Of a stretch of DNA of 64,000 bases, positions 6,106-64,000 are shown piece after piece (position 1 is the first letter of the stretch; every line of letters starts with the position of its first letter). The translations under genes and the position numbers were made by a program. Origin of the DNA: Escherichia phage SelmaRatti. The DNA lies in the sequence record MZ501103. One strand, given 5' to 3'. The notes below the pieces were generated by a model that was not told the origin of the DNA, ran no database searches, and saw nothing but the letters and a program-made list of their open reading frames with translations.

Positions 6106-6114
6106 TCTGCCTCC

Positions 6115-10811: not shown

Positions 10812-11564
10812 ATGGGAAAAGCACGTCAAAAAAGAGAGAACCGCAATGGTTCAAGAAAGCGTGGCAACAAATATGAGAATAACGTAATTCAGGCTGATTT
10901 TTCTAATGATTACGCTAACCCAGTTGCTAAATCCCTAGTAGGTAAAAACCGAGAGCAAAAATCATATATCAATATGATCAAGAACAACACAGTGACTGTG
11001 GGTATTGGTGAGCCAGGTACTGGTAAAACCTTTATCCCGTCTGTTCTTGCAGCTCAGGAACTCGTAGACATTCACTCAGATATTGAGCAAGTGATTCTAG
11101 TCCGTCCTAATGAACCTCTAGGTAAGTCTCTTGGTATGCTTCCTGGTGATCTAGCAGAAAAGCTAGAGCCTTGGTTAGAGCCAATAGCTGATGGTATGAA
11201 ATGGGCCATCGGTGATCATGCCTATAATGGGTATGTCGAACGTCAGAAAATTAAATTTTTGGCTGTAGAACATGCTCGTGGCAGAACTTTCAACAACTCC
11301 TATGTAATTGTCGATGAAGCTCAGAATATTTCCGTTGAGGCAATGATTTGTCTCCTAACTCGTGTAGGACAAGACTGCCGTTTAATTATCTGTGGAGATA
11401 TAGCTCAGAAAGACATTAAAGGTGACTCAGGTCTAGCACTCCTTATGGAAGTCTATGAAAAATACGAAAATGCCCCATTCTCAATGATCGAATTGATTGA
11501 TAACGTTCGTTCTGTTGAGTCTAAAGCATTCTATGATATTTTTAAAGACATGGGGAAGGTGTAA
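10812..11564 (+). CDS. phoH: PhoH-like ATPase
   Basis: Walker A GEPGTGKTF; start placed at ATG 10812 after RBS AGGAG rather than the GTG at 10803. Confidence 0.8.
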   Translation: MGKARQKRENRNGSRKRGNKYENNVIQADFSNDYANPVAKSLVGKNREQKSYINMIKNNTVTVGIGEPGTGKTFIPSVLAAQELVDIHSDIEQVILVRPNEPLGKSLGMLPGDLAEKLEPWLEPIADGMKWAIGDHAYNGYVERQKIKFLAVEHARGRTFNNSYVIVDEAQNISVEAMICLLTRVGQDCRLIICGDIAQKDIKGDSGLALLMEVYEKYENAPFSMIELIDNVRSVESKAFYDIFKDMGKV

Positions 11565-20985: not shown

Positions 20986-21687
20986 ATGAAAGTAAAACCA
21001 TTTGGTATGCTAGATATTGAATCTCTAGGAACTCCAGGAGATTGTGGTACTACTCATATTGTAATGCCTTCTTTCGCTTTTGTGGCTATGCACGGAATTG
21101 ATAAAGATCCTGGTCTAGTGTTTGTTACTTTAGATGTACAAGATCAGCTTAATTCTGGAGCTAAAGTTACGGCATCTACTCTAGCATTCTGGATGGATCA
21201 AGCTAAACATAGCCCGTCTGCTGTCCACATTATGGAAGCTATGAAGGAACGTAATCCAAAACTGATTGCCTTCCAAAATGGTAAACATTATTGCACTAAT
21301 AAATTAGGCTCAAACTATGCTGCCTTCTCTATGGCTAAAAACATTATGGAATCGGCTCTAGGAGAGAATGCTCTATACTACGGCAATGGCCCGGAGTTTG
21401 ATATGACTATCTACTCTGCAAATACGTTCCACGCGGGAACTCACGAAGAGGTAGTTCCGTGGAAATTCTGGAACTTAGGTAATGTTCGATCTATACGCAA
21501 TCTTTGGATGCAGGCTGGCTATAGTTATAAAGATCTAGAAGCCGAAGGTATTAGCTGGGCAATAGCTAAAATGGAGAAGATGGACACCATTCGTTATGGG
21601 ATCTATCCGGTTAAGCATGATCCAGCATTCGATGCCTTAGTTGAGAGCTATTGTATTGCAGCTATGATCGAAAAAATGAAAATTTGA
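20986..21687 (+). CDS. hypothetical protein (233 aa)
   Basis: ORF with RBS AAAGGA. Confidence 0.55.
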   Translation: MKVKPFGMLDIESLGTPGDCGTTHIVMPSFAFVAMHGIDKDPGLVFVTLDVQDQLNSGAKVTASTLAFWMDQAKHSPSAVHIMEAMKERNPKLIAFQNGKHYCTNKLGSNYAAFSMAKNIMESALGENALYYGNGPEFDMTIYSANTFHAGTHEEVVPWKFWNLGNVRSIRNLWMQAGYSYKDLEAEGISWAIAKMEKMDTIRYGIYPVKHDPAFDALVESYCIAAMIEKMKI

Positions 21688-23091: not shown

Positions 23092-23913
23092 ATGGGTAAA
23101 TTACAAAAACAAATACTACCATATATAGATTATATTCGAGAAATTATAAAATATAATCCTTATACCGGTAAATTATTTTATAAGCCTAATAAATACAAGA
23201 ATAAAACTTGGCACACCCTATATGCTGGGAGAGAAATATGTAGTAAGAACTCTAATGGGTACATCAGAGTTAGCTTGCTCTTAGGTAATAAACCCACAAT
23301 TATTTATGGGCACCGAATAGCGTGGTTGCTCCATTATGGTGAAGAGCCACCTGATATGATCGACCATATAAATACCATACCGTGGGATAACAGAATTCTT
23401 AATCTAAGAGAGACAAATTTTAAGTTAAATAGGATTAATACTGATAAAACCGTAGGTGTAGAACTCCTCTCCGAGGGTTTTGTGTATAGCATTACATTAG
23501 GTGGAAAGTTTTTCGTATCTCCTGGCTTCACCACTTTCGAACAAGCTAAAGGGGAAAGAGAAAAACTAGTAAATGGTTTATGTAATGCAGAAATTGGGAA
23601 GCAGACCAATATTCTAATAGACGATGTTAGAGATCTACCTGAAATGTCCATTATTTGTCGTACAGTTATAGGTGCGCTGGAACTATCAGATATGTTTAGT
23701 TTCACAGGATCCTATTTATTTATGGACTCAGATTTAGGGGATCCAGAGGTACAAGGAAAAGATTTATTAGATCATATACTATTTTTAGGTCAAAGACCAC
23801 TAAAAGTGGTTCTAGTAACATCTAATCCTGTTGACGCAGAGTACATGAGAGGAACCCTTACGTCTTATGGATACCGAGAAAATCCCAATAGATTAGAATA
23901 TGATCTATTTTAA
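23092..23913 (+). CDS. HNH homing endonuclease
   Basis: GHRIAWLLHYGEEPPDMIDHINTIPWDNRILNLRE HNH-type motif. Confidence 0.65.
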   Translation: MGKLQKQILPYIDYIREIIKYNPYTGKLFYKPNKYKNKTWHTLYAGREICSKNSNGYIRVSLLLGNKPTIIYGHRIAWLLHYGEEPPDMIDHINTIPWDNRILNLRETNFKLNRINTDKTVGVELLSEGFVYSITLGGKFFVSPGFTTFEQAKGEREKLVNGLCNAEIGKQTNILIDDVRDLPEMSIICRTVIGALELSDMFSFTGSYLFMDSDLGDPEVQGKDLLDHILFLGQRPLKVVLVTSNPVDAEYMRGTLTSYGYRENPNRLEYDLF

Positions 23914-26484: not shown

Positions 26485-27432
26485 ATGTTTAATACTAAAA
26501 ATATGAAAGAACTAACTTCTGAGCAGAAAGTAATTCGTACTATTAAACGTTGGGGGATTGGTGCTGTAGTTGGTTTAGCAGGTTTAATCCTAGCTTTTAA
26601 TTCATATACTATTGTTTCTGATGGTACGGTTAAAACTCAAACATTCCTGGGTAAAGTAGACCCTAATCCAGTATTACCTGGTTTCCATATTGTAAACCCG
26701 TTTGCATCTTTCGATACTTTCAGTACAAAAGATATTGCTGTAAAATTAGATAAACTTCAGGTTCCTAGTCAGGATAAGTTTAAATCCACTGTTGACCTGA
26801 CTGTTATGTTACAATTTGATGGTTCTAAGGCACCGATCAACCGTATTAATGCAGGTACTCAGGATCAGGCTCTAGATAAGTACGTAACTGAAAAATTACT
26901 GTCCACTATTCGTGAGTTCGGTAAGTCTGTACCTAAAGCACAAGATTTATTTGATGCTAAAATTCAGGCTCAATTGCAAACTGCAATTCAACAGGAAGTT
27001 GAAGAGTATGCACGCCCATATGGTTACACAGTTAAGCAGGTATTCCTTCAGGATATTACTTTGCCACCGGTAATCATGGAACAGGTACAGAATACCAAAG
27101 TTCGTGAAGAACAGGTTAATGCTGCTAAAGCTGAATTAGCTCGTGTTGAACAGGAAGCACAGCAAAAAGTTAAACAAGCAGAAGCAGATCGTGAAGCTCG
27201 CAACAACCAAGCTATCGCTAATGAACGTGACGCAGATGCTAAACTGTACGCAGCTAAGAAAGAAGCTGAAGCTAACGCCGCACTGCAACGTACCATTACT
27301 CCTGAGATGATTCGTTGGAAACAACTGGAAGTTGAGATGATTCGTGCTCAGAAATATCAAGGTGGTGTGCCGCAGACTGTGGTTGGCACTGGTTACGATG
27401 GCCAGATGATTATGGATATGCGTAATAAGTAA
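26485..27432 (+). CDS. SPFH/band-7 (prohibitin/HflKC-like) membrane protein
   Basis: N-terminal TM helix, SPFH-like core, long Ala/Glu/Gln coiled coil. Confidence 0.7.
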   Translation: MFNTKNMKELTSEQKVIRTIKRWGIGAVVGLAGLILAFNSYTIVSDGTVKTQTFLGKVDPNPVLPGFHIVNPFASFDTFSTKDIAVKLDKLQVPSQDKFKSTVDLTVMLQFDGSKAPINRINAGTQDQALDKYVTEKLLSTIREFGKSVPKAQDLFDAKIQAQLQTAIQQEVEEYARPYGYTVKQVFLQDITLPPVIMEQVQNTKVREEQVNAAKAELARVEQEAQQKVKQAEADREARNNQAIANERDADAKLYAAKKEAEANAALQRTITPEMIRWKQLEVEMIRAQKYQGGVPQTVVGTGYDGQMIMDMRNK

Positions 27433-36296: not shown

Positions 36297-36995
36297 ATGA
36301 GAATCATTTCTAAATTCGCAGATGTGTATGATTTGCAGAACAGTTTGTTTGATCCCGATCGTGTTTGGGAGCGTAAAACTGAAGAGTTACTAGTTAAGGT
36401 AACTGATGATGCAGAAAAGAACATTGTGCATACTCGCCAAGTATTTCGTGAGGGTTCACTATCTTTCCGTGGTGACTTCGAATACTTCGTAAACCCACTG
36501 TTTATTGCAGGTGAAGTTTACTGGCTACACGAGCTGTACTGCTGGCACCCAGCATTTAGTTTCAAAACGTTCAACCTCGACACTATGTTCGATAAAATGG
36601 AAGAGATGGGATTGCATGCTCGCTCCTACTTAATGGATAAGAGTCGTGGAGATGTTCGTGAAACAATGCGTGATTTGCTCGTTGAAGCAAAACCTAAAGC
36701 AGAACGTATCTTGTCCGAACTGCGTGTACCGATTGCATATGTGAAAGGTATTAAGAAGAACGATAACGATGATGTTCGTAACTTCGTGATTCAGACTAAC
36801 ATTCGTTTCCATCAGTCAGGTATTCCGTGGCAGGAAATTGAAAGTAACTTATACCGTTTACACCAGATGATCGAGCAATATATCTGGGGCGTGTTAGGAA
36901 CCGGTGAACCAAATACTATTACGATTTCCGATAAGGATCGCTTAGCTGCACATGGATTTGATACGATTACATCATTCAGGAATATGAAAAGATGA
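36297..36995 (+). CDS. hypothetical protein (232 aa)
   Basis: ORF after T5-type promoter near 36245-36275. Confidence 0.55.
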   Translation: MRIISKFADVYDLQNSLFDPDRVWERKTEELLVKVTDDAEKNIVHTRQVFREGSLSFRGDFEYFVNPLFIAGEVYWLHELYCWHPAFSFKTFNLDTMFDKMEEMGLHARSYLMDKSRGDVRETMRDLLVEAKPKAERILSELRVPIAYVKGIKKNDNDDVRNFVIQTNIRFHQSGIPWQEIESNLYRLHQMIEQYIWGVLGTGEPNTITISDKDRLAAHGFDTITSFRNMKR

Positions 36996-37435
36996 TAAAA
37001 AACTTTATTAGTTCCCTATGGCAAGGTAAGTGGTATATCCTGGGAGCAGGTCTAGCGATAGGCATCGGGTTCGGTGCTTATCACTTAGTAGATAAAGTGG
37101 AGACTCTAGCAGGAGATCTTGCGGTAGCTACTAAAAAGATTACGTCCCTAGAGACTTCCCTTAATAATATGAAAGCTGAGAGTAAACTTCGTGAAACTCG
37201 TATGAATCAGTATTTCACAATGAATAATGTTTCCCAAGCAGATCTAGACAAGAAGATTAATCAGCTTGATAAGGCACTTAGTCGTCAAGATATTATAGCT
37301 GCAAAGCCTGGATTGGTTACATTAATTGCTAAAAAGCAGAGTAAAGAATTTGAGGAGAGATTAGCATGTCTTTCTGGAAGTGTGGAATACTGCTCGCAGC
37401 CGCAATCACAATCACAGGCTGTGCACAAGAAATAA
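36992..37435 (+). CDS. i-spanin (Rz-like) candidate
   Basis: N-terminal TM helix then coiled coil; 3-prime end overlaps the lipoprotein gene in another frame. Confidence 0.6.
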   Translation: MIKNFISSLWQGKWYILGAGLAIGIGFGAYHLVDKVETLAGDLAVATKKITSLETSLNNMKAESKLRETRMNQYFTMNNVSQADLDKKINQLDKALSRQDIIAAKPGLVTLIAKKQSKEFEERLACLSGSVEYCSQPQSQSQAVHKK

Positions 37436-37719
37436 AGCCAGAACCTACACATGAGCTACCAACAGCTCACGTAGATTGGCCTAAAGGACTTCAACCTTGT
37501 AGCTTTGACTTTAAGTTTGAAAAGAAATTAGCTACAAATGGGGAAGATGGCGTAGTAGTAGTCGTACCATATAAAGATTGGAATATGTTGGCAAAATGCC
37601 GTGAGGCAGAATATTCATATATTTCACGGCTGACAAGTATGGTTTGCTTCTATCGCCAAGATTTACAAGAAAAACGTTGCTTAGTTTACTATCCACCAAT
37701 TAACAATAGGAAAGATTAA
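37366..37719 (+). CDS. o-spanin (Rz1-like) lipoprotein candidate
   Basis: Signal peptide with lipobox ITGC; gene overlaps upstream TM/coiled-coil gene. Confidence 0.6.
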   Translation: MSFWKCGILLAAAITITGCAQEIKPEPTHELPTAHVDWPKGLQPCSFDFKFEKKLATNGEDGVVVVVPYKDWNMLAKCREAEYSYISRLTSMVCFYRQDLQEKRCLVYYPPINNRKD

Positions 37720-38471
37720 TGTCAGTATTAGTCGGTTTACATGGCGAGGCAGGTGCGGGAAAAGATACCGTTGCAAAATTAATTATCGATTGGTGTAATA
37801 ACACGTATCCAACGTGTTTATCCAGTCGTTACAGTTTTGCTAAGCCCGTTTATGAACTTGCATCCGTAATTCTCGGTGTAACTCCAGAGTTTCTAGGAGA
37901 GCGCAGGGGAAAAGAGGTTGACCAATGGTTTACGGTCACACAATCTCAATTGGAGCGAGCCAGAGATGTGTGGTTTAAGTACGGTATCGATAAGTTTGAA
38001 GACTTCTCGTACGTTTGGCCTATTTTTGAGGAAAAATATCTTAATCCTCAACAACTTATCTCAGAGAATAAAGAAGACGGACTTTATAGTTTATTTATTT
38101 CTCCGAGAAAAATGTTACAGCTCGTAGGAACAGAGCTAGGAAGGCAGCTGGTGCATGAACGCATTTGGCTCATAATTCTGGAGCAATCCATCGCTAAAGA
38201 CGACCCAGATGTCGCCGTAATAACAGATGTGAGATTCCCCAATGAAGGAGAGTTACTAAGAGAAACAAACCATTTAGATATGGATTCTTTGATATTAAAT
38301 GTAGTACCCGCTGAGCAGAAGTTCACTATTAAATCAGATCATCCATCTGAAAGTGGTATTCCTGCAAAATATATTACTCACGAATTAGTTAATAAATTCG
38401 ATGGTATCAATAACCTTAAACTAGAAGTTTATAACTTCTGTGACTTAGAGCTAAAACCACTAGTTGGATAA
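37719..38471 (+). CDS. deoxynucleoside monophosphate kinase-like P-loop kinase
   Basis: P-loop GEAGAGKDT near N-terminus; 250 aa. Confidence 0.6.
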   Translation: MSVLVGLHGEAGAGKDTVAKLIIDWCNNTYPTCLSSRYSFAKPVYELASVILGVTPEFLGERRGKEVDQWFTVTQSQLERARDVWFKYGIDKFEDFSYVWPIFEEKYLNPQQLISENKEDGLYSLFISPRKMLQLVGTELGRQLVHERIWLIILEQSIAKDDPDVAVITDVRFPNEGELLRETNHLDMDSLILNVVPAEQKFTIKSDHPSESGIPAKYITHELVNKFDGINNLKLEVYNFCDLELKPLVG

Positions 38472-38483
38472 TCAAGGATCGCT

Positions 38484-39080
38484 ATGACTAATAAAAAAGA
38501 AGAAAAGACTAACCTGTTTCACTCCATTCGCCAATCTAATGAGTATACCTTTTTCTTTGATGAAGAATTAGGTCCGCCGGATGAATACCGTGATTTATCA
38601 ATGGTACTTATGCAAGCAAATGAGAACGACGAAATTAATCTGATGATTAATGGTCCAGGTGGTTATGTTGATACTGCTGCACAGTTATCTAACTTAATTG
38701 CTAATTGCCGTGGAACAGTTATAGGGCATCTGGTTGGTCCTAGTGCTTCTGCTTACTGCACAATCTTCCTATCTTGCCACGGTTGGGTAGTACATCCGCA
38801 TGCTACGCTAATGGGACACACGTTCTCTGGGGGGTTCTGCGAGAAAGGTCAAGAAATCAAGAAAGCCTATGAATCTTACAACAAGTTCGTAGAAGATATG
38901 ATGCTAGATGTCTACTATCCATTCTTCTCAATAGATGAAATCGACGAGATGGTAAAAGACAACAAAAATATCTATCTAGATAGCAAGGAAATCCATAAGC
39001 GTATTGAAATCTTGGCAAAATATCGATCTGAGCAATATAATAAAGCCCAGTTACCTCAATTCGAGGAGCATAAAGAATAG
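38484..39080 (+). CDS. ClpP/S14-S49-like serine peptidase homolog
   Basis: MINGPGGYVDTAAQLSNLIANCRGTVIGHLVGPSASAYCTIF resembles the ClpP INSPGG core. Confidence 0.55.
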   Translation: MTNKKEEKTNLFHSIRQSNEYTFFFDEELGPPDEYRDLSMVLMQANENDEINLMINGPGGYVDTAAQLSNLIANCRGTVIGHLVGPSASAYCTIFLSCHGWVVHPHATLMGHTFSGGFCEKGQEIKKAYESYNKFVEDMMLDVYYPFFSIDEIDEMVKDNKNIYLDSKEIHKRIEILAKYRSEQYNKAQLPQFEEHKE

Positions 39081-39092
39081 TAAGTAGTTTTA

Positions 39093-39124
39093 AGCCAGGG
39101 TTTAACGACCCTGGCTTTTCTTTT
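39093..39124 (+). terminator. rho-independent terminator
   Basis: AGCCAGGG-loop-CCCTGGCT hairpin then TTTCTTTT. Confidence 0.7.
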
Positions 39125-39145: not shown

Positions 39146-39682
39146 ATGTTAACACAGAAGGAATTAAAAAGAAAGATAGAGTACAACCCAGAAACAGGAG
39201 AGTTCTTTAGGAAGCTGAAAAGTGGTAAAAAGTTAATAAATAATAGACCTAACAAAGATGGGTATATTTTAATAGGAGTTGCAGGGGGTGGAGTGCCACA
39301 ACAACTAGCCCATCGATTAGCTTTCCTTTACATGACTGGAAAAATACCAAAAATCGTTGACCATATTAATAGAAATACAGGAGATAATCGTTGGTGTAAT
39401 CTTAGAGACGCTACTCCACAACAAAACAGCAGAAATAGAAAGTCTAATAATAAGTCAGGATACTTAGGTGTATTTTGGAGTAAGGTTGCACAAAAATGGC
39501 AAGTACAAGTAACTGGATCAAACGAAGAGCTAGTATACGGAGGGTTATTCGAATACTTGGAACTGGATAAAGCAGTCGAAAAAGCAAATGAGCTAAGATT
39601 ACAGTACCATGGTTCTAGGGCAATGGTAGAGGTTTTCGATAATACACGACCGTTACCGCCTATTAAGGGATTAAATATGTGA
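39146..39682 (+). CDS. HNH homing endonuclease with AP2-like DNA-binding domain
   Basis: VDHINRNTGDNRWCNLRDATPQQN HNH motif; paralogs at 41873, 45342, 60574. Confidence 0.7.
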   Translation: MLTQKELKRKIEYNPETGEFFRKLKSGKKLINNRPNKDGYILIGVAGGGVPQQLAHRLAFLYMTGKIPKIVDHINRNTGDNRWCNLRDATPQQNSRNRKSNNKSGYLGVFWSKVAQKWQVQVTGSNEELVYGGLFEYLELDKAVEKANELRLQYHGSRAMVEVFDNTRPLPPIKGLNM

Positions 39683-39811: not shown

Positions 39812-40468
39812 TTGGAAAAGTTCTTACAATTATTAACGGTACTGCTCCAAGAAGCGAAAGATCCAGCATCGCTTCTTAAACGTCTGCTAACTATCTTAGT
39901 TGCTGTCATTATTTTCTTGTTTGTAAGTAACACTAGCGAGGTGATGTCATTTTTAAAGACTTTCTCCACGTCTTCGGTTTTACAGGATGTTCAAACCCAA
40001 AGGATAGATAACTTTCCTAATGTAGCACGAGAAAAGAGCATGGTACTCTTTTCTCAAACGGGTGCGGATGCTGTTTTTGTCGTCAAGTATAAACCCGATG
40101 CCATTAATGATTATTCTAACATTATTGCATGGGAAAGCAATGCGCAATTAGATAGGGCTGACTTGGCCGATAAAGCGGTAAATAAAACGTCTGAGCTATA
40201 TAGACGTCACTTGGAAGGCTTTAACTACGCATCGGATTTAAGTGTAAAAGTAAATAAATACATGGGGTTAAATATACCTGCGTTTAAGAACGTTACTTTT
40301 AATTACATATACACTTGTCCGTATTTCAATCTAAACAATATCTATGCTGGATATATTGGTATTGCTTGGAAAGATAATCCTGTAGATGCAGCCGATTCTG
40401 AACAGTTCAAGGAATATTTAGCAAAGCTCTGTTCCCCACAACAGAGATCTTTAGGTAGGTCAATATGA
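39812..40468 (+). CDS. holin candidate (218 aa)
   Basis: TM segment LLTILVAVIIFLFV; directly upstream of and overlapping the endolysin gene. Confidence 0.55.
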   Translation: MEKFLQLLTVLLQEAKDPASLLKRLLTILVAVIIFLFVSNTSEVMSFLKTFSTSSVLQDVQTQRIDNFPNVAREKSMVLFSQTGADAVFVVKYKPDAINDYSNIIAWESNAQLDRADLADKAVNKTSELYRRHLEGFNYASDLSVKVNKYMGLNIPAFKNVTFNYIYTCPYFNLNNIYAGYIGIAWKDNPVDAADSEQFKEYLAKLCSPQQRSLGRSI

Positions 40469-40878
40469 GTTTTAAATTTGGTAAAAATAGCGAAAAACAA
40501 TTAGCTACTGTTAAGCCAGAGCTACAAAAAGTAGCTCGTAGGGCTTTAGAATTATCTCCATATGATTTCACGATCGTACAGGGTATTCGTACAGTAGCAC
40601 AAAGTGCCCAGAATATTGCTAATGGTACTTCATTTTTAAAAGATCCTAGTAAAAGCAAGCATATTACTGGGGATGCTCTTGATTTTGCTCCATATATTAA
40701 TGGCAAAATTGATTGGAATGACTTAGAAGCATTTTGGGCAGTTAAAAAGGCTTTTGAACAAGCTGGTAAAGAGCTAGGCATTAAACTTCGTTTTGGTGCT
40801 GATTGGAATGCTTCGGGAGACTATCACGATGAAATAAAACGTGGTACCTATGATGGCGGTCATGTAGAACTAGTTTAA
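40465..40878 (+). CDS. endolysin, M15-family L-alanyl-D-glutamate peptidase-like
   Basis: 137 aa; HITGDALDF and DGGHVEL zinc-peptidase motifs. Confidence 0.75.
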   Translation: MSFKFGKNSEKQLATVKPELQKVARRALELSPYDFTIVQGIRTVAQSAQNIANGTSFLKDPSKSKHITGDALDFAPYINGKIDWNDLEAFWAVKKAFEQAGKELGIKLRFGADWNASGDYHDEIKRGTYDGGHVELV

Positions 40879-54716: not shown

Positions 54717-55453
54717 AATTTATAAGTATATTATATAATATGAAATAGTTAGTTGGCTAATGAGATTTTCCGGGATTAGTAGTCTGCTAATAGTTCAGGC
54801 TGTTACAATCCACCAGCATGATTATCATCCTAGCAATTATTAGTCTGCTATCTTTCTAATACACAACAACAAATAAAAGTCAATTAATTTATTTCATAAA
54901 ATAACTCAATGCCCCTTGATTTTAAAAAGTCAATACCTTTTACAACTATTTTTCAATTTTGCTTTTGTTAAATATTTGTTAAATCGAAAATGAGCCGCCT
55001 AAAACGCCCTAGAAAGCGGTAAAATTTTCAGGTATGCCATTGCATAGCCTACCCTCGTTTATCGTCACCACGAGCTTTTTAGATTTTGTCAAGTAGGGGA
55101 GAGCAAATATAAATGAAAAAATTACTTGCCTATTTGCTTTGTTTTGTGGTATTCGCGCGCCCGTTTCTTTTAATTTTAGGCCGTCACCGCACGCCATCCG
55201 GTGAATCGTGTCTTTACGTTTCTTTACAAAAATAAGGTTGCGCCATTTTCGGGAATCCCCTATTATTTATCACGTAGGGCGGCAATGACGAACTACACGG
55301 CGGGAAGTTTACCGCCGCGCTCTTTAAAAATTGGGTATATCTTAAAGTCTATCGGCGGTAAACTTATCTATTATAAGGAATCGACGATATGAAACAAACT
55401 TTATTAATCACCGGTAAACCAGCCAAAAATTGGATGGCAATACTAGAAAGCTG

Positions 55454-55481
55454 TTGACAATAGCTCAACAATCCGTAAAAT
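55454..55481 (+). promoter_or_regulatory. sigma70 promoter (TTGACA-16-TAAAAT), pre-early operon P1
   Basis: Near-consensus -35 and -10 elements. Confidence 0.6.
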
Positions 55482-55587
55482 ATCGATTCACGCAGTACAA
55501 GAAAGGTAGCCAGCAAGGTTTAGAAATGGTCTGGCGAAATATTATGATTGACTTGAAAGAAAATCATAAAAAACTGCAAAAAATTGT

Positions 55588-55616
55588 TTGACAACCTAGC
55601 CGATAGGCTTTAAGAT
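55588..55616 (+). promoter_or_regulatory. sigma70 promoter (TTGACA-17-TAAGAT), pre-early operon P2
   Basis: Consensus -35 with 17-bp spacer, about 140 bp upstream of first pre-early ORF. Confidence 0.6.
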
Positions 55617-55754
55617 GTACCCCGTAGTAACTGCTCTTTAACGACTTGGAAAACGATAATGTTTAGGCTAACTCCTAGTGGATTTTTTCTTATTATCTGC
55701 TACTTTCTAGCAGATAATGCGGAACAATCCATCAAATAACTTGGAGTTTATACC

Positions 55755-56006
55755 ATGAAAAACGTTATTACCGCGCCTAAAATTGGTCAATCCGTCTTCA
55801 TTCCTTTCGTTACTAAAACGGATGAATTAACCGGAAAAGCCGAACGTATTAAAGGTGCGGCGCTTATGCCGTTCGATACAATCGATGCGGTATACGCTGA
55901 AACGGAACGTAGTAACAACGGAAAAACTATTTATAGCGTTCGGGTTAAATCTGGCGACGCTGTAAAGGTTGTTCAACGTAACGAAAAATGGGAAGCCGTA
56001 GCGTAA
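55755..56006 (+). CDS. hypothetical pre-early protein (83 aa)
   Basis: ORF with conserved TGGAGTT RBS context. Confidence 0.55.
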   Translation: MKNVITAPKIGQSVFIPFVTKTDELTGKAERIKGAALMPFDTIDAVYAETERSNNGKTIYSVRVKSGDAVKVVQRNEKWEAVA

Positions 56007-56100
56007 TAGTGTTACTTTATATTCCTCTGTTTCAGGGGAATATAATAATTAACATTAGGTTAATCTAATCCCTTAAATTAAATTAATTGGAGTTATAATC

Positions 56101-56517
56101 ATGGCTAACGTTAAAACCGAAAAATCTGCAAAATTCGCATGGAATGAAGAAAACACCCAGCAGGCTGTTACCATGTATCAGCAGCTCATCAATGAAAACG
56201 GCTTGGAGTTCGCCAACAGCGACGGCCTGAGAGAGATCGCAAAAGCAGTGGGCGCGGCTTCTCCCGTATCCGTTCGGTCAAAATTGTCCAGAGCGAAAGT
56301 CTATCAAAAAAGCGATAAGCCTCGCAAGGTTGGCGGCGGCAGTTCAATTCGCAAGGCGCACTATGTACGCGTTATTGCAAAACATGCTATTGATTCCGGC
56401 ATTATCAAAGACGCTGACGATTTAGCAAGCCTTGAAATCGCAAAATTGGAAACGCTGGACGCCGTGGCGCAACTATTGGGCGTTGCCGATGAAGTAAAGC
56501 AGGCCGCAGGTGAATAA
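56101..56517 (+). CDS. hypothetical pre-early protein (138 aa)
   Basis: ORF with TGGAGTTATAATC-ATG context. Confidence 0.55.
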   Translation: MANVKTEKSAKFAWNEENTQQAVTMYQQLINENGLEFANSDGLREIAKAVGAASPVSVRSKLSRAKVYQKSDKPRKVGGGSSIRKAHYVRVIAKHAIDSGIIKDADDLASLEIAKLETLDAVAQLLGVADEVKQAAGE

Positions 56518-56574
56518 ATTTAATTAGCTGGGAATATTCCCCGCTATAATTTCCCTTTGACTGGAGTTATTAAA

Positions 56575-56772
56575 ATGATCTTTTACCCCACTGAATCGCT
56601 AATTTTAGGCTTATTTATTATGGCGGCCTCATTATTATTTGCTTATTTTCAAAATGATTTAGATTCGTATTATTTTAAGCGAAAAGCTAAATTGGCAAAG
56701 CGTTTAGGTCTGATTTGTTTTATTGCCGCCATTGCTCTTGGTGTAAGTTCAAGCCTAATGCCTATTAGTTAA
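56575..56772 (+). CDS. small membrane protein (65 aa)
   Basis: ATG 56575 after CTGGAGTT RBS; two TM helices. Confidence 0.5.
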   Translation: MIFYPTESLILGLFIMAASLLFAYFQNDLDSYYFKRKAKLAKRLGLICFIAAIALGVSSSLMPIS

Positions 56773-56869
56773 ATATTGCAAATTATAACGCCACTCATTT
56801 GCGGCGTTATATCTGGCAATATTTGCCAATAACAAACGTTTTTAATCCCTTCAATGGAGTTTTATTACT

Positions 56870-58534
56870 ATGGTTATTTCCGCAGAAAAACAAATCCAGA
56901 TTCTCAACCTTGCCGCTGATTTTAATTTTTATGGTAAACGTCTGCGCGCTACTAAGCTGGAAGTTTGTGACGATATATCAAAAGCTGTTTATGATACGCC
57001 GAAACATTCCACCGCTATTTGTGACTGGCTGGAAGCAAATAAGCCAGCGAAACCGAAAGCGGCAAAAGCTGAAAAGGCGATTAAAAACGATGATCGCCCC
57101 GAAGCGGCTGGGATTGTTTCTAGTACGGTGGAGCAATGGGAAGTAAAACAAGGTAAACGCTTTATTATTACATCGATTCAGAATAATACGTTCCCACATA
57201 AAAACTTTTTAGCCTCGCTTGAACAATATGCCCAGTTTATCGGCGCTGATTTGCTTGTTTCTAAGTATATTTATAATAAAAACGGATTCCAAAATGGAGA
57301 AGGGGCAGACGGTATCAAATATGATTCCGCATTTGATAAATATATCTGCGAGAAAAATGTATTTTTAAACAATCGCCGTTTTGCTTTCATGGCTGAAATT
57401 AATGTTTTGCCAACCGCAGATTATCCGCTTTCTGGATTCGCTGAAACTGCAACGGCTTTAAATATTGAAGGGCTGGCAATTGGTCACGCTAAAATTACCG
57501 CCGAAAGCGTGCCAGCTTTAAAAGGTGGAGTAGTGCGCCGTATGTATTCAACCGGAACGGCAACGTTAAAAAACTACATTCAGCAGAAAGCAGGACAAAA
57601 GGCCGGGGCGCTGCATAATTTCGGGGCGCTTATTGTTGAGTTCGACGACGACGGGGAATTTTTTGTTCGCCAGCTTGAAACGATGGACGAAAGCGGCGTT
57701 TTTTACGATTTGAATATTTACGCCACTCCCACCGGATGCTATGAAACAACGGGGCACGTTTTAGGTTTACAATATGGCGATATTCACGCCGAAAAATTAG
57801 ATGATGATTGTGCCGTTGCGTCATGGGCTGGCGAAAATAGCTTGCTTGATATTTTAAAGCCTAAATATCAGTTTGTGCATGACGTGCATGATTTTACATC
57901 GCGCAATCACCACAACCGCGCGTCTGGTGTATTCCTAGCGAAACAGTATGCAGCCGGACGTGATAAAGTTCTGGATGATCTCATCGACACGGGGCGCGTG
58001 CTGGAATCAATGGAACGCGATTTCTCGCAAACAATCATCGTGGAGTCTAACCATGATCTGGCGCTTTCCCGCTGGCTGGATGATCGTAATGCTAACATTA
58101 AAGACGACCCAGCAAACGCGGAACTATATCACCGCCTTAATGCTGCAATCTATGAAGCTATTGCAGAAAAAGACGACACTTTCAACGTGCTAGATTATGC
58201 GCTGCGCAAGGTTGCAGGCTGTGAATTTAACGCCATTTTCCTTACTACTGATCAATCTTTCAAGATTGCAGGCATTGAATGCGGCGTACACGGTCACAAT
58301 GGCATTAACGGAAGCCGTGGCAATCCGAAACAGTTTAAGAAATTGGGCAAATTAAACACCGGACACACTCACACGGCTAGTATTTACGGCGGCGTATATA
58401 CCGCTGGCGTGGCTGGTTCCCTTGATATGGGTTACAACGTTGGCGCGTCAAGCTGGACGCAAACGCATTTAATTACCTATGCGAACGGCCAGCGCACTTT
58501 GATTGACTTTAAAAACGGCAAATTTTTCGCGTAA
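56870..58534 (+). CDS. A1: A1-like pre-early protein, SbcD/Mre11-like metallophosphoesterase
   Basis: 554 aa; phosphoesterase motifs GDIH, HDVHD, ESNHD, GVHGHNG, GHTHT; position in pre-early operon upstream of dmp. Confidence 0.6.
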   Translation: MVISAEKQIQILNLAADFNFYGKRLRATKLEVCDDISKAVYDTPKHSTAICDWLEANKPAKPKAAKAEKAIKNDDRPEAAGIVSSTVEQWEVKQGKRFIITSIQNNTFPHKNFLASLEQYAQFIGADLLVSKYIYNKNGFQNGEGADGIKYDSAFDKYICEKNVFLNNRRFAFMAEINVLPTADYPLSGFAETATALNIEGLAIGHAKITAESVPALKGGVVRRMYSTGTATLKNYIQQKAGQKAGALHNFGALIVEFDDDGEFFVRQLETMDESGVFYDLNIYATPTGCYETTGHVLGLQYGDIHAEKLDDDCAVASWAGENSLLDILKPKYQFVHDVHDFTSRNHHNRASGVFLAKQYAAGRDKVLDDLIDTGRVLESMERDFSQTIIVESNHDLALSRWLDDRNANIKDDPANAELYHRLNAAIYEAIAEKDDTFNVLDYALRKVAGCEFNAIFLTTDQSFKIAGIECGVHGHNGINGSRGNPKQFKKLGKLNTGHTHTASIYGGVYTAGVAGSLDMGYNVGASSWTQTHLITYANGQRTLIDFKNGKFFA

Positions 58535-58591
58535 TTAAATTATTTCCCTAGCGGCTTGAAATATAGCCGCTATTATAGGAGCTAAATTAGA

Positions 58592-58849
58592 ATGAAAGTT
58601 ACATTACCCAAAACATTGGACGAAAAAGTATTCATTTCACCGGATGAAATGGAATCCGGTGAAGTTTACAGCTTCGGGCCTATCCTAGCCGCCAAAACTA
58701 ATACGGATGGCATTATTACGGTCAATTATCGTGATAATGATATTGTTCCTTTTGAAGATGATGACGCTTTTTATGAGTGGCTAATCGTTAATAATTTACC
58801 CGTAGACGGTGAATTAACGCCATATCAAATGCAAATTATCATTAAATAA
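58592..58849 (+). CDS. hypothetical pre-early protein (85 aa)
   Basis: ORF with RBS AGGAG. Confidence 0.5.
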   Translation: MKVTLPKTLDEKVFISPDEMESGEVYSFGPILAAKTNTDGIITVNYRDNDIVPFEDDDAFYEWLIVNNLPVDGELTPYQMQIIIK

Positions 58850-58860
58850 AGGTATCAATA

Positions 58861-59151
58861 ATGAAAATTAATTTACCTAGTAGTGAGTTTTCCCCTAAAT
58901 CCCTTTTATTAGATGATATTATTAATCAATATTCTTACATAAACGGGGAAGTATATCGCGCTTGTTCTGACTTCCTAGATTATCCCGATTATCCAATCTA
59001 TAAGGGTGATTTCATTATACCTGTTTATAATGGTGTGCTAGTAGTATGTAAAGCTGGGGCTATTGTTATAGATAGCTGCACATTATCACAAGAAACGTTT
59101 AAAGTGCCGATAGAGTTAACTAATTATTCTACTAGTATCACAGTACAATAA
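58861..59151 (+). CDS. hypothetical pre-early protein (96 aa)
   Basis: ORF. Confidence 0.5.
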   Translation: MKINLPSSEFSPKSLLLDDIINQYSYINGEVYRACSDFLDYPDYPIYKGDFIIPVYNGVLVVCKAGAIVIDSCTLSQETFKVPIELTNYSTSITVQ

Positions 59152-59187
59152 ATTAAGTCCCTTATTAAATTAATTGGAGTCATAAAC

Positions 59188-59583
59188 ATGGATAAATCTA
59201 ACCGTATCCCATTCGATCGCGCTCAGTCTTCTATTGTTCTGGTTTATTCTAATGGTGAACGTTACCACGTCGAGGCGGGGCACGTTATTGGTGAATTGCT
59301 AGACTTTAACGAGGCGCTACAGGTTACTACTTTCGCCTATACCACGGGCAAGGCAGCAAGCCGCATTAAAGCGAAAGGCGTTTATATTGATACCATGAAA
59401 CAAGAAACCATCATTATTGACGCTGTAAAATCAGGTCTAGCCTTTGCAGTAGTCGCACCTTGCCCCGCTTGCCTCGATGATCAATTGATTAGCGCAAAAG
59501 TATATACTTGTGCGGGTATTCGTTCCAATGTATCCGGTGAGGATGTTAGTTTTATCGCTGATGCGTTGGCTTATGGTCTTTAA
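59188..59583 (+). CDS. hypothetical pre-early protein (131 aa), possible A2-like partner
   Basis: ORF with TTGGAGTCATAAAC-ATG context; A2 assignment is positional guess only. Confidence 0.45.
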   Translation: MDKSNRIPFDRAQSSIVLVYSNGERYHVEAGHVIGELLDFNEALQVTTFAYTTGKAASRIKAKGVYIDTMKQETIIIDAVKSGLAFAVVAPCPACLDDQLISAKVYTCAGIRSNVSGEDVSFIADALAYGL

Positions 59584-59596
59584 TAGTTAATTTATT

Positions 59597-59620
59597 ATTG
59601 CCCGCTGATAAATAGCGGGC
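59597..59620 (+). terminator. hairpin, weak terminator or attenuator
   Basis: TTGCCCGCT-loop-AGCGGGCAA without a strong T-run. Confidence 0.35.
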
Positions 59621-59663
59621 AATGCTGAATTAATCTAATCCCTTAAATGGAGAACGTAACAAA

Positions 59664-60398
59664 ATGAATCAAGTTAAAACGAATATTACCCGCAATTTCC
59701 CGCATATTTCCCGCGTCATGATTTGGGACTTAGACGGCACTATCGTTAATTCATTCCATCGCGTAGCGCCTTGCTTTGATGATAACGGGAATCTAGATTT
59801 AAATAAGTATTCCCGCGAAGCCTGCAAACATAATTTAATAATGCAAGATACTTTATTGCCGCTTGTTACATATATGCGCCAGTGCATGAATGACGCAAAT
59901 ACTTTAAACATTATCTGTACAGCTCGACTGATGAGAAAGTCGGACTATTATTATTTGCGTAAACAAGGCTTACGAGGGGGTGTGAATAGTAATATCCGTG
60001 TATTTTCCCGCGATACACTACACAAATATTTTAAAGCTGATAAGGTTAGCGAAATATACCACAGCAAAGACGCAGTATATAAATCTTATTATTTTGAATT
60101 ATTTAAACAGTTATATCCGAACGCTGATTTTACAATGATTGATGATCATAAAGGCGTGCTATCAGCGGCGGCATCATACGGATTTAAAACGCTGGACGCG
60201 CAAGCCGTTAACGATATTCTATCAATCGGCGTGGCATTGATAGGTGAAACCTTTATCGATGAATCTCTTGAGGATGATAATGATTATCAGTTCCTAGCCG
60301 ACCGTCTGCAATTATGTTGGGAAGGTATGACCGAGGAAGAACGCGCAGAATATAGTTGCAGCCCGCAACAATATATTGAGAAACTAAAAGTTGCGTAA
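59664..60398 (+). CDS. dmp: 5-prime-deoxyribonucleotidase, HAD-family (Dmp-like)
   Basis: 244 aa; HAD motif I in VMIWDLDGTIVNS. Confidence 0.7.
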   Translation: MNQVKTNITRNFPHISRVMIWDLDGTIVNSFHRVAPCFDDNGNLDLNKYSREACKHNLIMQDTLLPLVTYMRQCMNDANTLNIICTARLMRKSDYYYLRKQGLRGGVNSNIRVFSRDTLHKYFKADKVSEIYHSKDAVYKSYYFELFKQLYPNADFTMIDDHKGVLSAAASYGFKTLDAQAVNDILSIGVALIGETFIDESLEDDNDYQFLADRLQLCWEGMTEEERAEYSCSPQQYIEKLKVA

Positions 60399-60417
60399 TA
60401 ATTAAAGTTGAAATTGT

Positions 60418-60451
60418 TTCACCCTGCAATTAAAATGGTTGCAGGGTGAAA
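60418..60451. terminator. long hairpin between convergent dmp and HNH genes
   Basis: TCACCCTGCAA-loop-TTGCAGGGTGA. Confidence 0.45.
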
Positions 60452-60573
60452 TAGTTAGCAGGGTAATAGTAACGGGGGTGGCGGTTAGGAGACTAAGTAT
60501 TCTCCCACTAGCCACTGCACCCACCCACGCGTACGTAATCCAAAGAATTTGGTAAAAGTCATTTTAGTGCTAA

Positions 60574-61071
60574 TTAATTATGATTTGCAAACTCGCCGTG
60601 ATAATGCTCCCTGGCTTTTTTAAGCTCTTTTTCAGCCTGCTCAATGGTTTTAAAAGTTCCTACGGTAATTCTATTGCCATTTACACGTAGTTTTGCTTCG
60701 AACTTTTCCTCCCCACGTTTATATACCCCCTTAACTCCGGTAGATTCATTTTTCCATCCCGAAGAGTTTTTGCCATTCTCTGCATTTGTTGCTTTACGCA
60801 GGTTATTCCACCTATTGTTGAAAGGGTCTTGATCTTTATGATCAATGAGAAACTCACTAGGATCTTCTCCTGTCATGTATAGATACGCTACCAGATGGGC
60901 CTTATATAACCCATTACTGCCCATTGATAGGGATATTCCTGAGCTATTTCTACTGCCTGCTGGCTTACCTTTACGACTCCCTGAGTTCCAAGTAAATATA
61001 CCCGTCTCTGGATCATAATCAAATTTCTTCTGGTATTCTGCTAAGGGGAGTAGAGGTTTATGATTTGCCAT
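60574..61071 (-). CDS. HNH homing endonuclease (AP2-like)
   Basis: LIDHKDQDPFNNRWNNLRKATNAEN HNH motif. Confidence 0.7.
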   Translation of the reverse strand: MANHKPLLPLAEYQKKFDYDPETGIFTWNSGSRKGKPAGSRNSSGISLSMGSNGLYKAHLVAYLYMTGEDPSEFLIDHKDQDPFNNRWNNLRKATNAENGKNSSGWKNESTGVKGVYKRGEEKFEAKLRVNGNRITVGTFKTIEQAEKELKKAREHYHGEFANHN

Positions 61072-61255
61072 CTATCTTGAATCTCCTCCGAGAACTTCTT
61101 GAATCATCATTCCACTCCCACTCGAACTCCGCACGTTTCTCGTCAAACTTCCGCTCCCTTTCCGCAGTATATTTACGATGCTTGTTAATAGCCGCAGTCA
61201 TTCCGAAAACTCCCGCGAGTATCCCAATAATAAAAGCAATTATAATACTAAACAT
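61058..61255 (-). CDS. small membrane protein (65 aa)
   Basis: N-terminal TM helix MFSIIIAFIIGILAGVFGMTAAI. Confidence 0.45.
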   Translation of the reverse strand: MFSIIIAFIIGILAGVFGMTAAINKHRKYTAERERKFDEKRAEFEWEWNDDSRSSRRRFKIDGKS

Positions 61256-61442
61256 CTAATTCCCTCTCAATTTGCAGAATACGGGTGCTGTCACAACGTT
61301 GCAGTAGTACTAGCTTTTCTAGAGTAACTTGTTGTTGTTTTACTTGAGCTTCTAGAGTTTTTAAGCGGAGATACACGATACGAGAGACAATGAAGATTGC
61401 CCAGACTAATATTACTATTAGTGTAACTGCCATTTCCATCAT
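61248..61442 (-). CDS. small membrane protein (64 aa)
   Basis: TM helix VTLIVILVWAIFIVS; overlaps neighbours. Confidence 0.45.
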   Translation of the reverse strand: MMEMAVTLIVILVWAIFIVSRIVYLRLKTLEAQVKQQQVTLEKLVLLQRCDSTRILQIERELDV

Positions 61443-61850
61443 TTACGTTTCTCCGTTAATAAAGTTTCAATTCTAGCTAAGTGATTATCTAAGATACATT
61501 GCCCAATAATCACAATCCCTAGCAACGCAATAAGTACCCATTCCATTAAATCCACCCCGCCATAGCTGCTAACCAAAAACCTGCGAAAATAAAGAATAGG
61601 ATAGTTCCGAACCCAAAGCTATTAATCCAGCTATCGTACACTTCTCCACGTCTGCTCTTTCTTTTGTTTGACATATCTTTCATGCTCCTATAAATATGGT
61701 ATTTAAAATATTCTATAATTTGTGCATAACCAACCGTGCCTGTGAACTCCTAAAAGGACTTCTACTTTTCTTACATAGTGGTTTCTGCCAATATACCATC
61801 CAAAAAATAAAAAATTTAGTTTACTTGGATGTCTTTTTGCTTTATACTAA

Positions 61851-62117
61851 TTACAGGTAGTTAGATTGCTCTAGTTTAAATTTACAATCACCATATTTAA
61901 GATCAAACTGACTGAGATCCCACCACCCAAACTTAGTACGGAGCTGTACTACTGGAAAGCGATCTCCCTTAATACGAACTTTTTGAACCTTGAGGCCGTA
62001 ATGTTCCTCTCCCGCACCTCCAAAAGATTTTACAAATCCCGTACAAAATGGTTTGGGGGCAGGTGCACAACCAGATAACATAACTGCGGCAACTAGTGCA
62101 ATTACAAACTTTTTCAT
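61851..62117 (-). CDS. llp: Llp-like lipoprotein (receptor-blocking superinfection-exclusion candidate)
   Basis: 88 aa; signal peptide with lipobox LSGC; divergent from the receptor-binding protein gene. Confidence 0.55.
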   Translation of the reverse strand: MKKFVIALVAAVMLSGCAPAPKPFCTGFVKSFGGAGEEHYGLKVQKVRIKGDRFPVVQLRTKFGWWDLSQFDLKYGDCKFKLEQSNYL

Positions 62118-62202
62118 ATTTATCTCTCCATTTCTATTTTATGAATATATTATAGCAAAGTAGAGAGATAAAAGCAAATACATTTTTATAATAGGAGATT
62201 AT

Positions 62203-63990: not shown

Positions 63991-64000
63991 AGGAGGAAAT

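What the first reader, a model, noticed from the sequence alone, without database searches (positions are those of the whole stretch)
38484..39080. ClpP-like serine peptidase in the early region rather than the head-morphogenesis cluster
Seen in sequence: MINGPGG...GPSASAYCTIF resembles the ClpP/S49 core, yet the gene sits between dNMP kinase and an HNH endonuclease, not next to portal or capsid genes. Inference: either an early protease acting on host or phage regulatory proteins, or an inactive ClpP mimic that interferes with host ClpXP/ClpAP.
Basis: partly seen in the sequence, partly recalled or inferred. Interest (0 to 1): 0.5.

Follow-up and report, generated by a model that had tools for sequence, protein, structure and literature searches.

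The report
T5 early-region ClpP-like peptidase (T5.042)
This is the already-annotated "Clp protease" gene of T5-like phages: a real ClpP-fold peptidase homolog that is neither the head-maturation protease nor a standard ClpXP/ClpAP subunit, and whose function is still unknown.

The parts
38484..39080 (+). ClpP-like peptidase CDS, 198 aa; ortholog of T5 gene T5.042 and BF23 ORF45; PHROG 1827
   Evidence: ORF. Pfam PF00574 33.5 bits. phrog_1827 E 7e-90. 97% identical to T5.042, dN/dS 0.03-0.06. ClpP fold.
38748..38750 (+). Codon TCT = Ser89, the predicted nucleophile, in the motif GPSAS89A
   Evidence: Aligned to the ClpP catalytic Ser97. Conserved in 263 of 263 aligned family members.
38817..38819 (+). 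Codon CAC = His112, the predicted general base, in the motif LMGH112T
   Evidence: Aligned to ClpP His122. Conserved in 263 of 263.
38967..38969 (+). Codon AAT = Asn162, at the position of the ClpP catalytic Asp171, in the motif N160-K161-N162-I-Y-L
   Evidence: Five profile alignments to ClpP structures put the catalytic Asp on this column. In 165 family members the column is D 133, E 18, N 8, T 4, and every N belongs to the T5-close clade. T5 itself also has N.
38484..38540 (+). N-terminal 19 residues: short, predicted disordered or a small hairpin; no counterpart of the ClpP axial gating loops and helix A
   Evidence: AF2 pLDDT below 50 for residues 1-10 and 12-16. In the family-profile alignment the first 25 residues of mature E. 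coli ClpP are unaligned.
39092..39117 (+). Intrinsic terminator ending the transcription unit that contains clp
   Evidence: 11-bp stem with 6 GC pairs followed by a T-run. T5 has an annotated terminator at the same place, 21114-21143.
37719..38471 (+). dNMP kinase (dnk), immediately upstream in the same transcription unit
   Evidence: Pfam DNMK E 6.6e-11 and phrog_139. Same order in T5 and in the distant relatives L017 and Vibrio phage 234P1.
36992..37719 (+). Overlapping i-spanin (36992-37435) and o-spanin (37366-37719) pair upstream of dnk
   Evidence: ORFs. The o-spanin has a lipobox-like LLAAAITITGC. The T5 orthologs T5.045/T5.044 are annotated as Rz-like spanins. The L009 spanin matches window 37411-37683.
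39146..39682 (+). HNH_3 homing endonuclease inserted between the clp terminator and the holin promoter; not part of the conserved module
   Evidence: Pfam HNH_3 E 3.5e-14. Absent from most relatives, which show 82% coverage in two pieces, and absent at this site in T5.
39812..40878 (+). T-type holin (39812-40468) and M15 endolysin (40465-40878), the next transcription unit downstream
   Evidence: Pfam Phage_holin_T E 1.4e-113; phrog_465 endolysin E 2.2e-54. Same order in T5 and L017.

Best explanation
The gene is the ortholog of phage T5 gene T5.042. It is a non-structural, early-region member of a large phage-specific branch of the ClpP-fold serine peptidases. Shown: it has the ClpP fold with an invariant Ser89 and His112 and an intact GG oxyanion-loop motif, and it is under strong purifying selection. 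It has no counterpart of the N-terminal gating loops and helix A, and its positions matching the ClpX/ClpA docking pocket are mostly polar. Its third triad residue is Asn162 instead of Asp throughout the T5 clade. It is transcribed with the spanins and dNMP kinase and is followed by its own terminator. A separate S78 enzyme is the head protease. Inferred: it assembles into ClpP-like rings and works without an AAA+ unfoldase as an ungated, self-compartmentalised peptidase acting on peptides or unfolded and disordered proteins in the infected cell. This would be an accessory host-takeover or recycling function that is dispensable in the laboratory but kept in nature. In the T5 clade the Asp-to-Asn change probably lowers its activity or makes it conditional, rather than abolishing it. 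The label 'ATP-dependent' is unsupported.
For: Fold and homology. Identity with T5.042 and synteny. Active site: Ser and His are conserved in 263 of 263 relatives, and the third residue is D or E in about 92% of 165 relatives. In the Asn clade N56, G59, G60, S89, H112, N160 and N162 are all invariant, while only 85 of 198 positions are. dN/dS is 0.03-0.06. No gating loops and a polar docking pocket: with the pocket and loop definitions from 10.1101/2023.03.01.530711. That paper also states that removing the ClpP N-terminal loops lets the isolated peptidase degrade unfolded proteins. Curated clpP and head-maturation models both fail. Non-structural context held in all 19 sampled loci. A separate S78 prohead protease exists (PMC10644984). 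In ICP1, gp125 is the predicted capsid protease, while the homolog gp211 lies within the nucleotide-metabolism block gp176-gp211, a subset of which peaks mid-infection (PMC7567579). It is one of 8 core genes across 185 Tequintavirus genomes (PMC12639943).
Against: No biochemical data exist: oligomeric state, activity and substrates are all unknown. In Listeria ClpP1 a Ser-His-Asn triad is catalytically impaired unless the ring is templated by a partner (PMC9257651), so a stand-alone T5 enzyme might be nearly inactive. CRISPRi-ART knock-down of T5.042 had no fitness effect ('Not Fit', fitness -4.47, p 0.90; PMC11879866 supplement), so no phenotype anchors any function. Trace detection in purified BF23 virions (3 peptides) and the recurrent PhoH and lysis-gene neighbourhoods hint at more specific roles that this generic model does not explain. 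The claims about the N terminus and the pocket rest on alignment and a monomer AF2 model, not on an assembled structure.
Confidence: 0.45

Rival explanations
1. Listeria-ClpP1-like mode. The T5 protein forms heptamers that are inactive alone. They stack on a host ClpP heptamer to form a mixed tetradecamer. The host ring supplies ClpX/ClpA docking and templates the Ser-His-Asn site into an active geometry, so that host Clp proteolysis is re-tuned or poisoned during infection.
Against: Identity to E. coli ClpP is only about 16-22%, and no interface was tested. The wider family, which mostly has Asp, occurs in phages of many hosts and looks self-sufficient. The sensor residues next to the triad (Asp/Arg in ClpP) are Asn160 and Lys161 here. 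There are no interaction data.
Confidence: 0.15
2. Catalytically dead pseudo-protease. The Asn162 substitution has inactivated the enzyme in the T5 clade, and the protein is kept for a non-catalytic role such as a binding decoy, scaffold or chaperone-like cage.
For: Asp to Asn at the third triad position impairs ClpP catalysis in the documented Listeria case. The substitution is fixed across the clade, down to 56% identity. The gene is dispensable in the laboratory.
Against: Ser89, His112, the GG oxyanion motif and N56 all remain invariant in the Asn clade, while more than half of all positions vary. That is not expected if catalysis were lost long ago. LmClpP1 shows that a Ser-His-Asn ClpP site can be active when properly aligned.
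Confidence: 0.15
3. Partner of the phage PhoH ATPase. The family works with PhoH (or PIN-PhoH) as a two-component module, with PhoH supplying nucleotide-dependent substrate handling. In T5-likes the two genes have become unlinked.
For: PhoH is the immediate neighbour in four well-separated lineages: Barbavirus, L011, L013, where it is a PIN-PhoH downstream of clp in the opposite gene order, and Alteromonas V22 CDS-146/147. It lies within 8 kb in ICP1, Ab5, L012/L019 and L021. The clp proteins of these loci share only about 25-45% identity in most pairs. The window encodes PhoH at 10803-11564. Both genes are on the list of 8 Tequintavirus core genes.
Against: PhoH is a helicase-like P-loop ATPase and not an AAA+ unfoldase. 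In T5-likes the genes are 27 kb apart. Both genes are common residents of the same early metabolic gene blocks, so some of the proximity is expected. The sample is small and was not chosen at random.
Confidence: 0.1
4. Lysis-linked protease. It degrades or processes a component or regulator of the holin-endolysin-spanin pathway and so tunes lysis timing.
For: In Demerecviridae the gene is embedded in the lysis genes in the order spanins, dnk, clp, holin, endolysin. This holds in the window, T5, L017 at 39% identity and Vibrio 234P1. In the marine contigs L009/L010 a spanin overlaps clp, which is followed by an M15 endolysin.
Against: The L009 spanins are homologous to the T5 spanins, so this is one inherited module and not independent convergence. 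Most other lineages show no lysis genes nearby. The protein has no signal peptide or transmembrane segment, while the holin periplasmic domain, endolysin and spanins act in the envelope. Knock-down gave no fitness defect.
Confidence: 0.08
5. Virion-associated or tail-maturation protease. It could, for example, be the enzyme that cleaves the tape-measure protein pb2.
For: Clp was detected in purified BF23 virions. pb2 is cleaved during tail assembly, and the paper read names no protease for it. The best NCBIfam and several PHROG hits are ClpP-related head maturation proteases.
Against: The virion signal is trace (3 peptides, about 0.07% of the capsid-protein intensity) and comes alongside evident passengers such as DHFR. 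The gene lies in the early region, not the late region. The score is far below the curated head-maturation cut-off (41 against 120). Knock-down has no fitness cost.
Confidence: 0.04

Closest known systems
Phage T5 gene T5.042 (YP_006870, 'ATP-dependent protease'), equivalent to BF23 ORF45 'Clp protease'; PHROG 1827
   Same: 97% amino-acid identity. Same neighbours (spanins, dnk, terminator, holin, endolysin). Same Asn at the third triad position.
   Different: Essentially nothing. This window has an extra HNH homing endonuclease inserted just downstream.
Listeria monocytogenes ClpP1 (PDB 4jcq; Ser98-His123-Asn172)
   Same: ClpP fold, a natural Ser-His-Asn triad, and no chaperone-docking site. 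It is among the best structural and sequence matches.
   Different: Only 22% identity. LmClpP1 is a cellular paralog with a known partner ring (ClpP2), and no partner is known here. The phage protein also lacks the N-terminal region and has a different, long helical C terminus.
Canonical bacterial ClpP (E. coli ClpP, MEROPS S14, TIGR00493)
   Same: Same fold, with Ser and His in the same motifs (GxxxS, MxH), a GG oxyanion loop and a handle helix.
   Different: No N-terminal gating loops or helix A. The docking-pocket residues are replaced by polar ones. The catalytic Asp is Asn. The C terminus is different. It scores 15.8 bits against the 308.6-bit equivalog cut-off.
ClpP-related phage head maturation proteases (NCBIfam NF045542; PHROGs 1684, 94)
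   Same: These are the closest curated sequence families outside its own PHROG. They also lack ClpX-type features.
   Different: It is not in the head module, it scores well below the cut-off (41 against 120), and the genome has a dedicated S78 prohead protease.
Non-structural 'Clp protease' genes of other virulent phages (ICP1 gp211, Barbavirus gp072, Alteromonas V22 CDS-147, Pakpunavirus ORF46)
   Same: Same structural cluster in BFVD (TMq about 0.8, E 1e-14 to 1e-28) and the same early or metabolic genomic setting.
   Different: 25-40% identity. Most of the sampled homologs keep Asp (Glu in Pakpunavirus, Gln by alignment in Barbavirus). Several have C-terminal extensions (up to 326 aa) and a PhoH neighbour.

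Membership tests
Canonical ClpP (MEROPS S14; TIGR00493 clpP) | ClpP/crotonase-like alpha/beta fold with a handle helix | tested here: met
Canonical ClpP (MEROPS S14; TIGR00493 clpP) | Complete Ser-His-Asp catalytic triad | tested here: not met
   Ser89 and His112 are present. The Asp position is Asn162.
Canonical ClpP (MEROPS S14; TIGR00493 clpP) | N-terminal axial gating loops (residues 1-19) and helix A | tested here: not met
   Only 19 poorly structured residues precede the first core strand. E. coli ClpP residues 1-25 have no counterpart. Loop definition.
Canonical ClpP (MEROPS S14; TIGR00493 clpP) | Hydrophobic pocket that docks the IGF/LGF loops of ClpX/ClpA (Y60, Y62, F82, I90, M92, L114 and others) | tested here: not met
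   The aligned residues are N52, M54, N74, H82, V84 and H104. Family-wide these columns are mostly N, H, E, S or T. Pocket list.
Canonical ClpP (MEROPS S14; TIGR00493 clpP) | Curated sequence-model thresholds | tested here: inconclusive
   The Pfam PF00574 domain model passes (33.5 against 20.2). The NCBIfam equivalog TIGR00493 fails (15.8 against 308.6).
Canonical ClpP (MEROPS S14; TIGR00493 clpP) | Tetradecameric barrel and ATP-dependent degradation with an AAA+ partner | not testable with these tools
   No multimer modelling or biochemistry was available.
ClpP-related phage head maturation protease (NF045542) | Curated sequence threshold | tested here: not met
   41 bits against a cut-off of 120.
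ClpP-related phage head maturation protease (NF045542) | Encoded in the head module next to the portal, scaffold or capsid genes, and serving as the phage's capsid protease | tested here: not met
   It lies in the early region. The head module of Kenya-K18 at 100-106 kb has its own Peptidase_S78, E 1e-18. The window has no head genes.
S49 (SppA / lambda gpC) and NfeD/STOPP peptidases | Ser-Lys dyad and family sequence models; for NfeD, an operon with an SPFH/stomatin gene | tested here: not met
T5.042 orthologous group / PHROG 1827 | Full-length sequence match and conserved synteny | tested here: met
   phrog_1827 E 7e-90 over residues 1-197. 97% identity to T5.042. Same gene order.
Impaired-triad ClpP isoforms (Listeria ClpP1 type) | Natural Ser-His-Asn triad and absence of chaperone-docking elements | tested here: met
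   compared with PMC9257651.
Impaired-triad ClpP isoforms (Listeria ClpP1 type) | Inactive heptamer that is activated by stacking on a canonical ClpP ring | not testable with these tools
   Needs native mass spectrometry or SEC, co-expression with host ClpP, or multimer modelling.

The most novel reading that the evidence does not exclude
The phage ClpP-like family and phage PhoH form a previously unrecognised functional pair: a nucleotide-dependent processing or degradation module of virulent phages. T5-likes keep both genes as core genes although they are unlinked there. Alternatively, or in addition, the T5-clade Ser-His-Asn variant docks on the host ClpP ring, as Listeria ClpP1 does on ClpP2, and so hijacks host ClpXP/ClpAP.
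Probability: 0.12. Interest if true: 0.7.

Novelty: already known. Interest (0 to 1): 0.3.

Why it matters
The gene is one of only eight core genes shared at more than 80% identity by 185 Tequintavirus genomes, yet it has no assigned function and no laboratory phenotype. [quoted passage not shown] Three observations turn a vague annotation into specific, cheap experiments: the Ser-His-Asn site resembles Listeria ClpP1, the gating and docking elements have no counterpart, and relatives recurrently sit next to PhoH. PhoH is itself one of the most widespread phage genes of unknown function, so a real PhoH-ClpP-like link would be of wider interest.

Tried and rejected
1. Prohead protease: rejected. 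A separate S78 enzyme sits in the head module and the window has no head genes.
2. S49 or NfeD membership: rejected. The SPFH gene is present but 11 kb away.
3. Defence or anti-defence model match: PADLOC gave nothing for the window protein or for the bacterial homolog L014.
4. Literature: no paper contains 'T5.042' and none uses 'phage-encoded ClpP' or 'phage ClpP'. A PhoH + Clp protease search returned only gene lists. The 2026 T5 pre-early gene study does not mention it.
5. The search for related loci with the broad alignment A2 failed because no conserved 7-10 column stretch exists. I used the look-up of encoding contigs on 12 diverse homologs instead.
6. A compensating acidic residue near Asn162: position 158 is D, E, H or N within the clade, so it is not conserved.
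7. Independence of the lysis-gene embedding in L009/L010: rejected, because their spanins are homologous to T5's, so this is inherited synteny.

Full report
OBSERVATION. An ORF runs from 38484 to 39080 on the + strand and encodes 198 aa. It has an AAGGA ribosome-binding motif 6 nt upstream and is followed by a strong intrinsic terminator at 39092-39117. The flanking genes are as described: a dNMP kinase at 37719-38471 and an HNH_3 endonuclease at 39146-39682.

GENOME AND PRIOR KNOWLEDGE. The window is a T5-like phage (Demerecviridae, Tequintavirus). The region is 95% identical to Salmonella phage Kenya-K18, and 448 phage records match it. The protein is 97% identical to T5 gene T5.042. [quoted passage not shown] It is PHROG 1827 (E 7e-90). 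The feature is therefore already known and annotated. What is not known is its function. The BF23 study states that the function of the Clp protease (ORF45) 'is currently unknown' and lists it separately from the prohead protease ORF164 (PMC10644984). No paper in the library contains 'T5.042'. A genome-wide CRISPRi-ART screen scored T5.042 as 'Not Fit' (fitness -4.47, p 0.90), meaning it is dispensable under laboratory conditions (PMC11879866 supplement). It is nevertheless one of only eight core genes shared at more than 80% identity by 185 Tequintavirus genomes (PMC12639943). Its dN/dS against T5 and K18 is 0.03-0.06.

NOT THE HEAD PROTEASE. In Kenya-K18 the head module (major capsid, a 210-aa protein, decoration protein, portal, terminase) lies at 100-106 kb, while clp lies at 23 kb. 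The 210-aa protein is Peptidase_S78, the Caudovirus prohead serine protease (E 1e-18). The window contains no S78, capsid or portal homolog. In ICP1, which has a homolog (gp211), the predicted capsid protease is a different gene (gp125). gp211 lies within the nucleotide-metabolism block gp176-gp211, a subset of which peaks mid-infection (PMC7567579).

ANATOMY COMPARED WITH CANONICAL ClpP. (i) Ser89 (TCT, 38748-38750) and His112 (CAC, 38817-38819) align with the ClpP nucleophile and general base. They are conserved in 263 of 263 aligned family members. (ii) Five independent profile alignments to ClpP structures place the ClpP catalytic Asp, the D in '(R)D(Y/F)FL', on the family column 'nkDiyl'. 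In this window that residue is Asn162 (AAT, 38967-38969). Among 165 relatives the column is D in 133, E in 18, N in 8 and T in 4. Every Asn belongs to the T5-close clade, at or above 56% identity, while the next relatives (Pectobacterium and Klebsiella T5-likes, 52-61% identity) keep Asp. T5 itself has Asn. No conserved acidic residue lies nearby. (iii) The protein has only 19 residues, poorly structured in the model, before the first core strand. The first 25 residues of mature E. coli ClpP, which form the axial gating loops and helix A, have no counterpart. (iv) The residues that form the ClpX/ClpA (and ADEP) docking pocket in E. coli ClpP were taken from 10.1101/2023.03.01.530711. In this protein Y60, Y62, F82, I90, M92 and L114 correspond to N52, M54, N74, H82, V84 and H104. 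Across the family those columns are mostly N, H, E, S or T. (v) The C terminus is a long helix (residues 167-189) rather than the ClpP helix-strand ending. (vi) NCBI's curated models both fail: clpP equivalog 15.8 bits against 308.6, and ClpP-related head maturation protease 41 against 120. The protein is therefore a ClpP-fold homolog from a separate, phage-specific branch. In the viral structure library it falls in a tight cluster (E 1e-14 to 1e-28, TMq about 0.8). Named members come from T5-likes, Providencia PSTCR5, Barbavirus, Pseudomonas pf16, Alteromonas V22 and Aeromonas AhSzq-1, plus a 326-aa entry (F1D4W8) the same length as ICP1 gp211. The cluster is clearly separated from other ClpP-like viral proteins (E about 1e-9). 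A deep profile search shows that the family is large: 507 representatives at 50% identity with E at or below 1e-30.

PRECEDENT FOR Ser-His-Asn. Listeria monocytogenes ClpP1 naturally has Ser98-His123-Asn172. On its own it is an inactive heptamer, it cannot bind AAA+ chaperones, and it becomes active when ClpP2 templates its triad in a ClpP1/ClpP2 hetero-tetradecamer (PMC9257651). LmClpP1 (4jcq) is among the best sequence and structure matches of the T5-type protein and has the highest identity, 22%. The parallel is a lead, not a demonstration.

GENOMIC CONTEXT. In the window, and identically in T5, the order is T5.047 homolog, i-spanin and o-spanin, dNMP kinase, clp, terminator, then promoter, T-holin, M15 endolysin. 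Most relatives lack it. The order spanin, dnk, clp, holin, endolysin persists in a contig whose clp is only 39% identical and has Asp (L017). It persists partly in a Vibrio T5-like phage. Two marine contigs have a spanin overlapping clp, followed by an M15 endolysin. Their spanins are homologous to those of T5, so this is one old module rather than convergence. I sampled 19 loci from other lineages. In all of them the gene lies among early or metabolic genes (NrdAB, ThyA, DHFR, dCMP deaminase, ligases, Acb1) and never in a head module. A PhoH gene is the immediate neighbour in four well-separated lineages: Barbavirus, L011, L013 (as PIN-PhoH in the opposite gene order) and Alteromonas V22. PhoH lies within 8 kb in ICP1, Acinetobacter Ab5, L012/L019 and L021. 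In this window PhoH is present (10803-11564, Pfam E 4.6e-61) but 27 kb away.

HOW IT MOST LIKELY WORKS. Shown: the ClpP fold; invariant Ser, His and GG motif; strong purifying selection; no counterpart of the gating loops and polar docking-pocket positions; early-region, non-structural placement. Inferred: the protein forms ClpP-like rings and acts without an AAA+ partner as an ungated peptidase on peptides or unfolded proteins. Removing the N-terminal loops from ClpP has exactly this effect. Its role would be an accessory host-takeover or recycling function. In the T5 clade the Asp-to-Asn change attenuates or conditions its activity. I give this 0.45. The rivals are: activation by stacking on the host ClpP ring, as in Listeria ClpP1 (0.15); a catalytically dead protein kept for binding (0.15); a PhoH-partnered module (0.10); a lysis-linked protease (0.08); and a virion or tail maturation protease, for example for pb2 (0.04). 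For the last rival the evidence is trace detection in BF23 virions and a pb2 cleavage for which the paper read names no protease.

VERDICT. However, this is the long-annotated T5.042 gene, so the novelty rating is 'already known'. What this work adds is a sharper description. The gene is not a canonical ClpXP/ClpAP subunit, it has a clade-specific Ser-His-Asn site, and it belongs to a large non-structural phage family with recurrent PhoH and lysis-gene neighbourhoods. That description makes the open question of its function directly testable. Interest is 0.3.

Noticed in passing
Loci L005 (4198-5720), L011 (7235-8720), L013 (8001-10000); also L003, L006, L012, L019, L021; window PhoH at 10803-11564: Relatives of this ClpP-like gene are immediate neighbours of a PhoH (or PIN-PhoH) ATPase gene in four well-separated phage lineages, and lie within 8 kb of one in at least four more. 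In this T5-like window both genes exist but are 27 kb apart.
   Followed up: partly
L012 (6650-7111), L019 (6688-7188), L020 (7455-7985), L021 (5468-6007): An Acb1 (anti-CBASS phosphodiesterase, Pfam PF23474) gene lies 0-2 kb upstream of the ClpP-like gene in four metagenomic phage contigs, usually in the order DHFR, a small ORF, Acb1.
   Followed up: no
L014 (8001-8582), Motiliproteus MAG GCA_036960175.1: A bacterial member of the same family sits inside a type III CRISPR-Cas/CARF (Card1) island next to a leucine-rich-repeat protein. PADLOC models do not match it.
   Followed up: partly
window 39146-39682: The HNH_3 homing endonuclease between the clp terminator and the holin promoter is absent from most T5-like genomes. 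It is present in Kenya-K18 and phage smaug, so it looks like a recent mobile insertion.
   Followed up: partly
window 26485-27429: The window has an SPFH/stomatin-domain gene, 96% identical to Kenya-K18 K18_077. It is relevant because NfeD-type ClpP-fold proteases pair with SPFH proteins, but it is 11 kb from clp. One distant homolog (L016) has a Band_7 gene 3 kb downstream.
   Followed up: partly
window 23092-23913: This ORF combines an HNH_3 endonuclease domain with a cREC_REC (cyclic-phosphate processing receiver) domain, Pfam E 1.6e-12. That is an unusual fusion for a homing endonuclease.
   Followed up: no
window 55000-64000: The far end of the window runs through the terminal-repeat (pre-early) region and straight into the llp and receptor-binding-protein end of the late region. 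It matches Kenya-K18 114.9 to 106.4 kb at 85-89% identity. The source record therefore appears to have one repeat copy collapsed or to be circularly permuted.
   Followed up: partly
L005 (Barbavirus clp, 5037-5720) and L004 (Pakpunavirus ORF46, 5974-6522): At the third triad column, by profile alignment, the Barbavirus homolog shows Gln and the Pakpunavirus homolog shows Glu. Departures from Asp may therefore have arisen more than once in the family.
   Followed up: no
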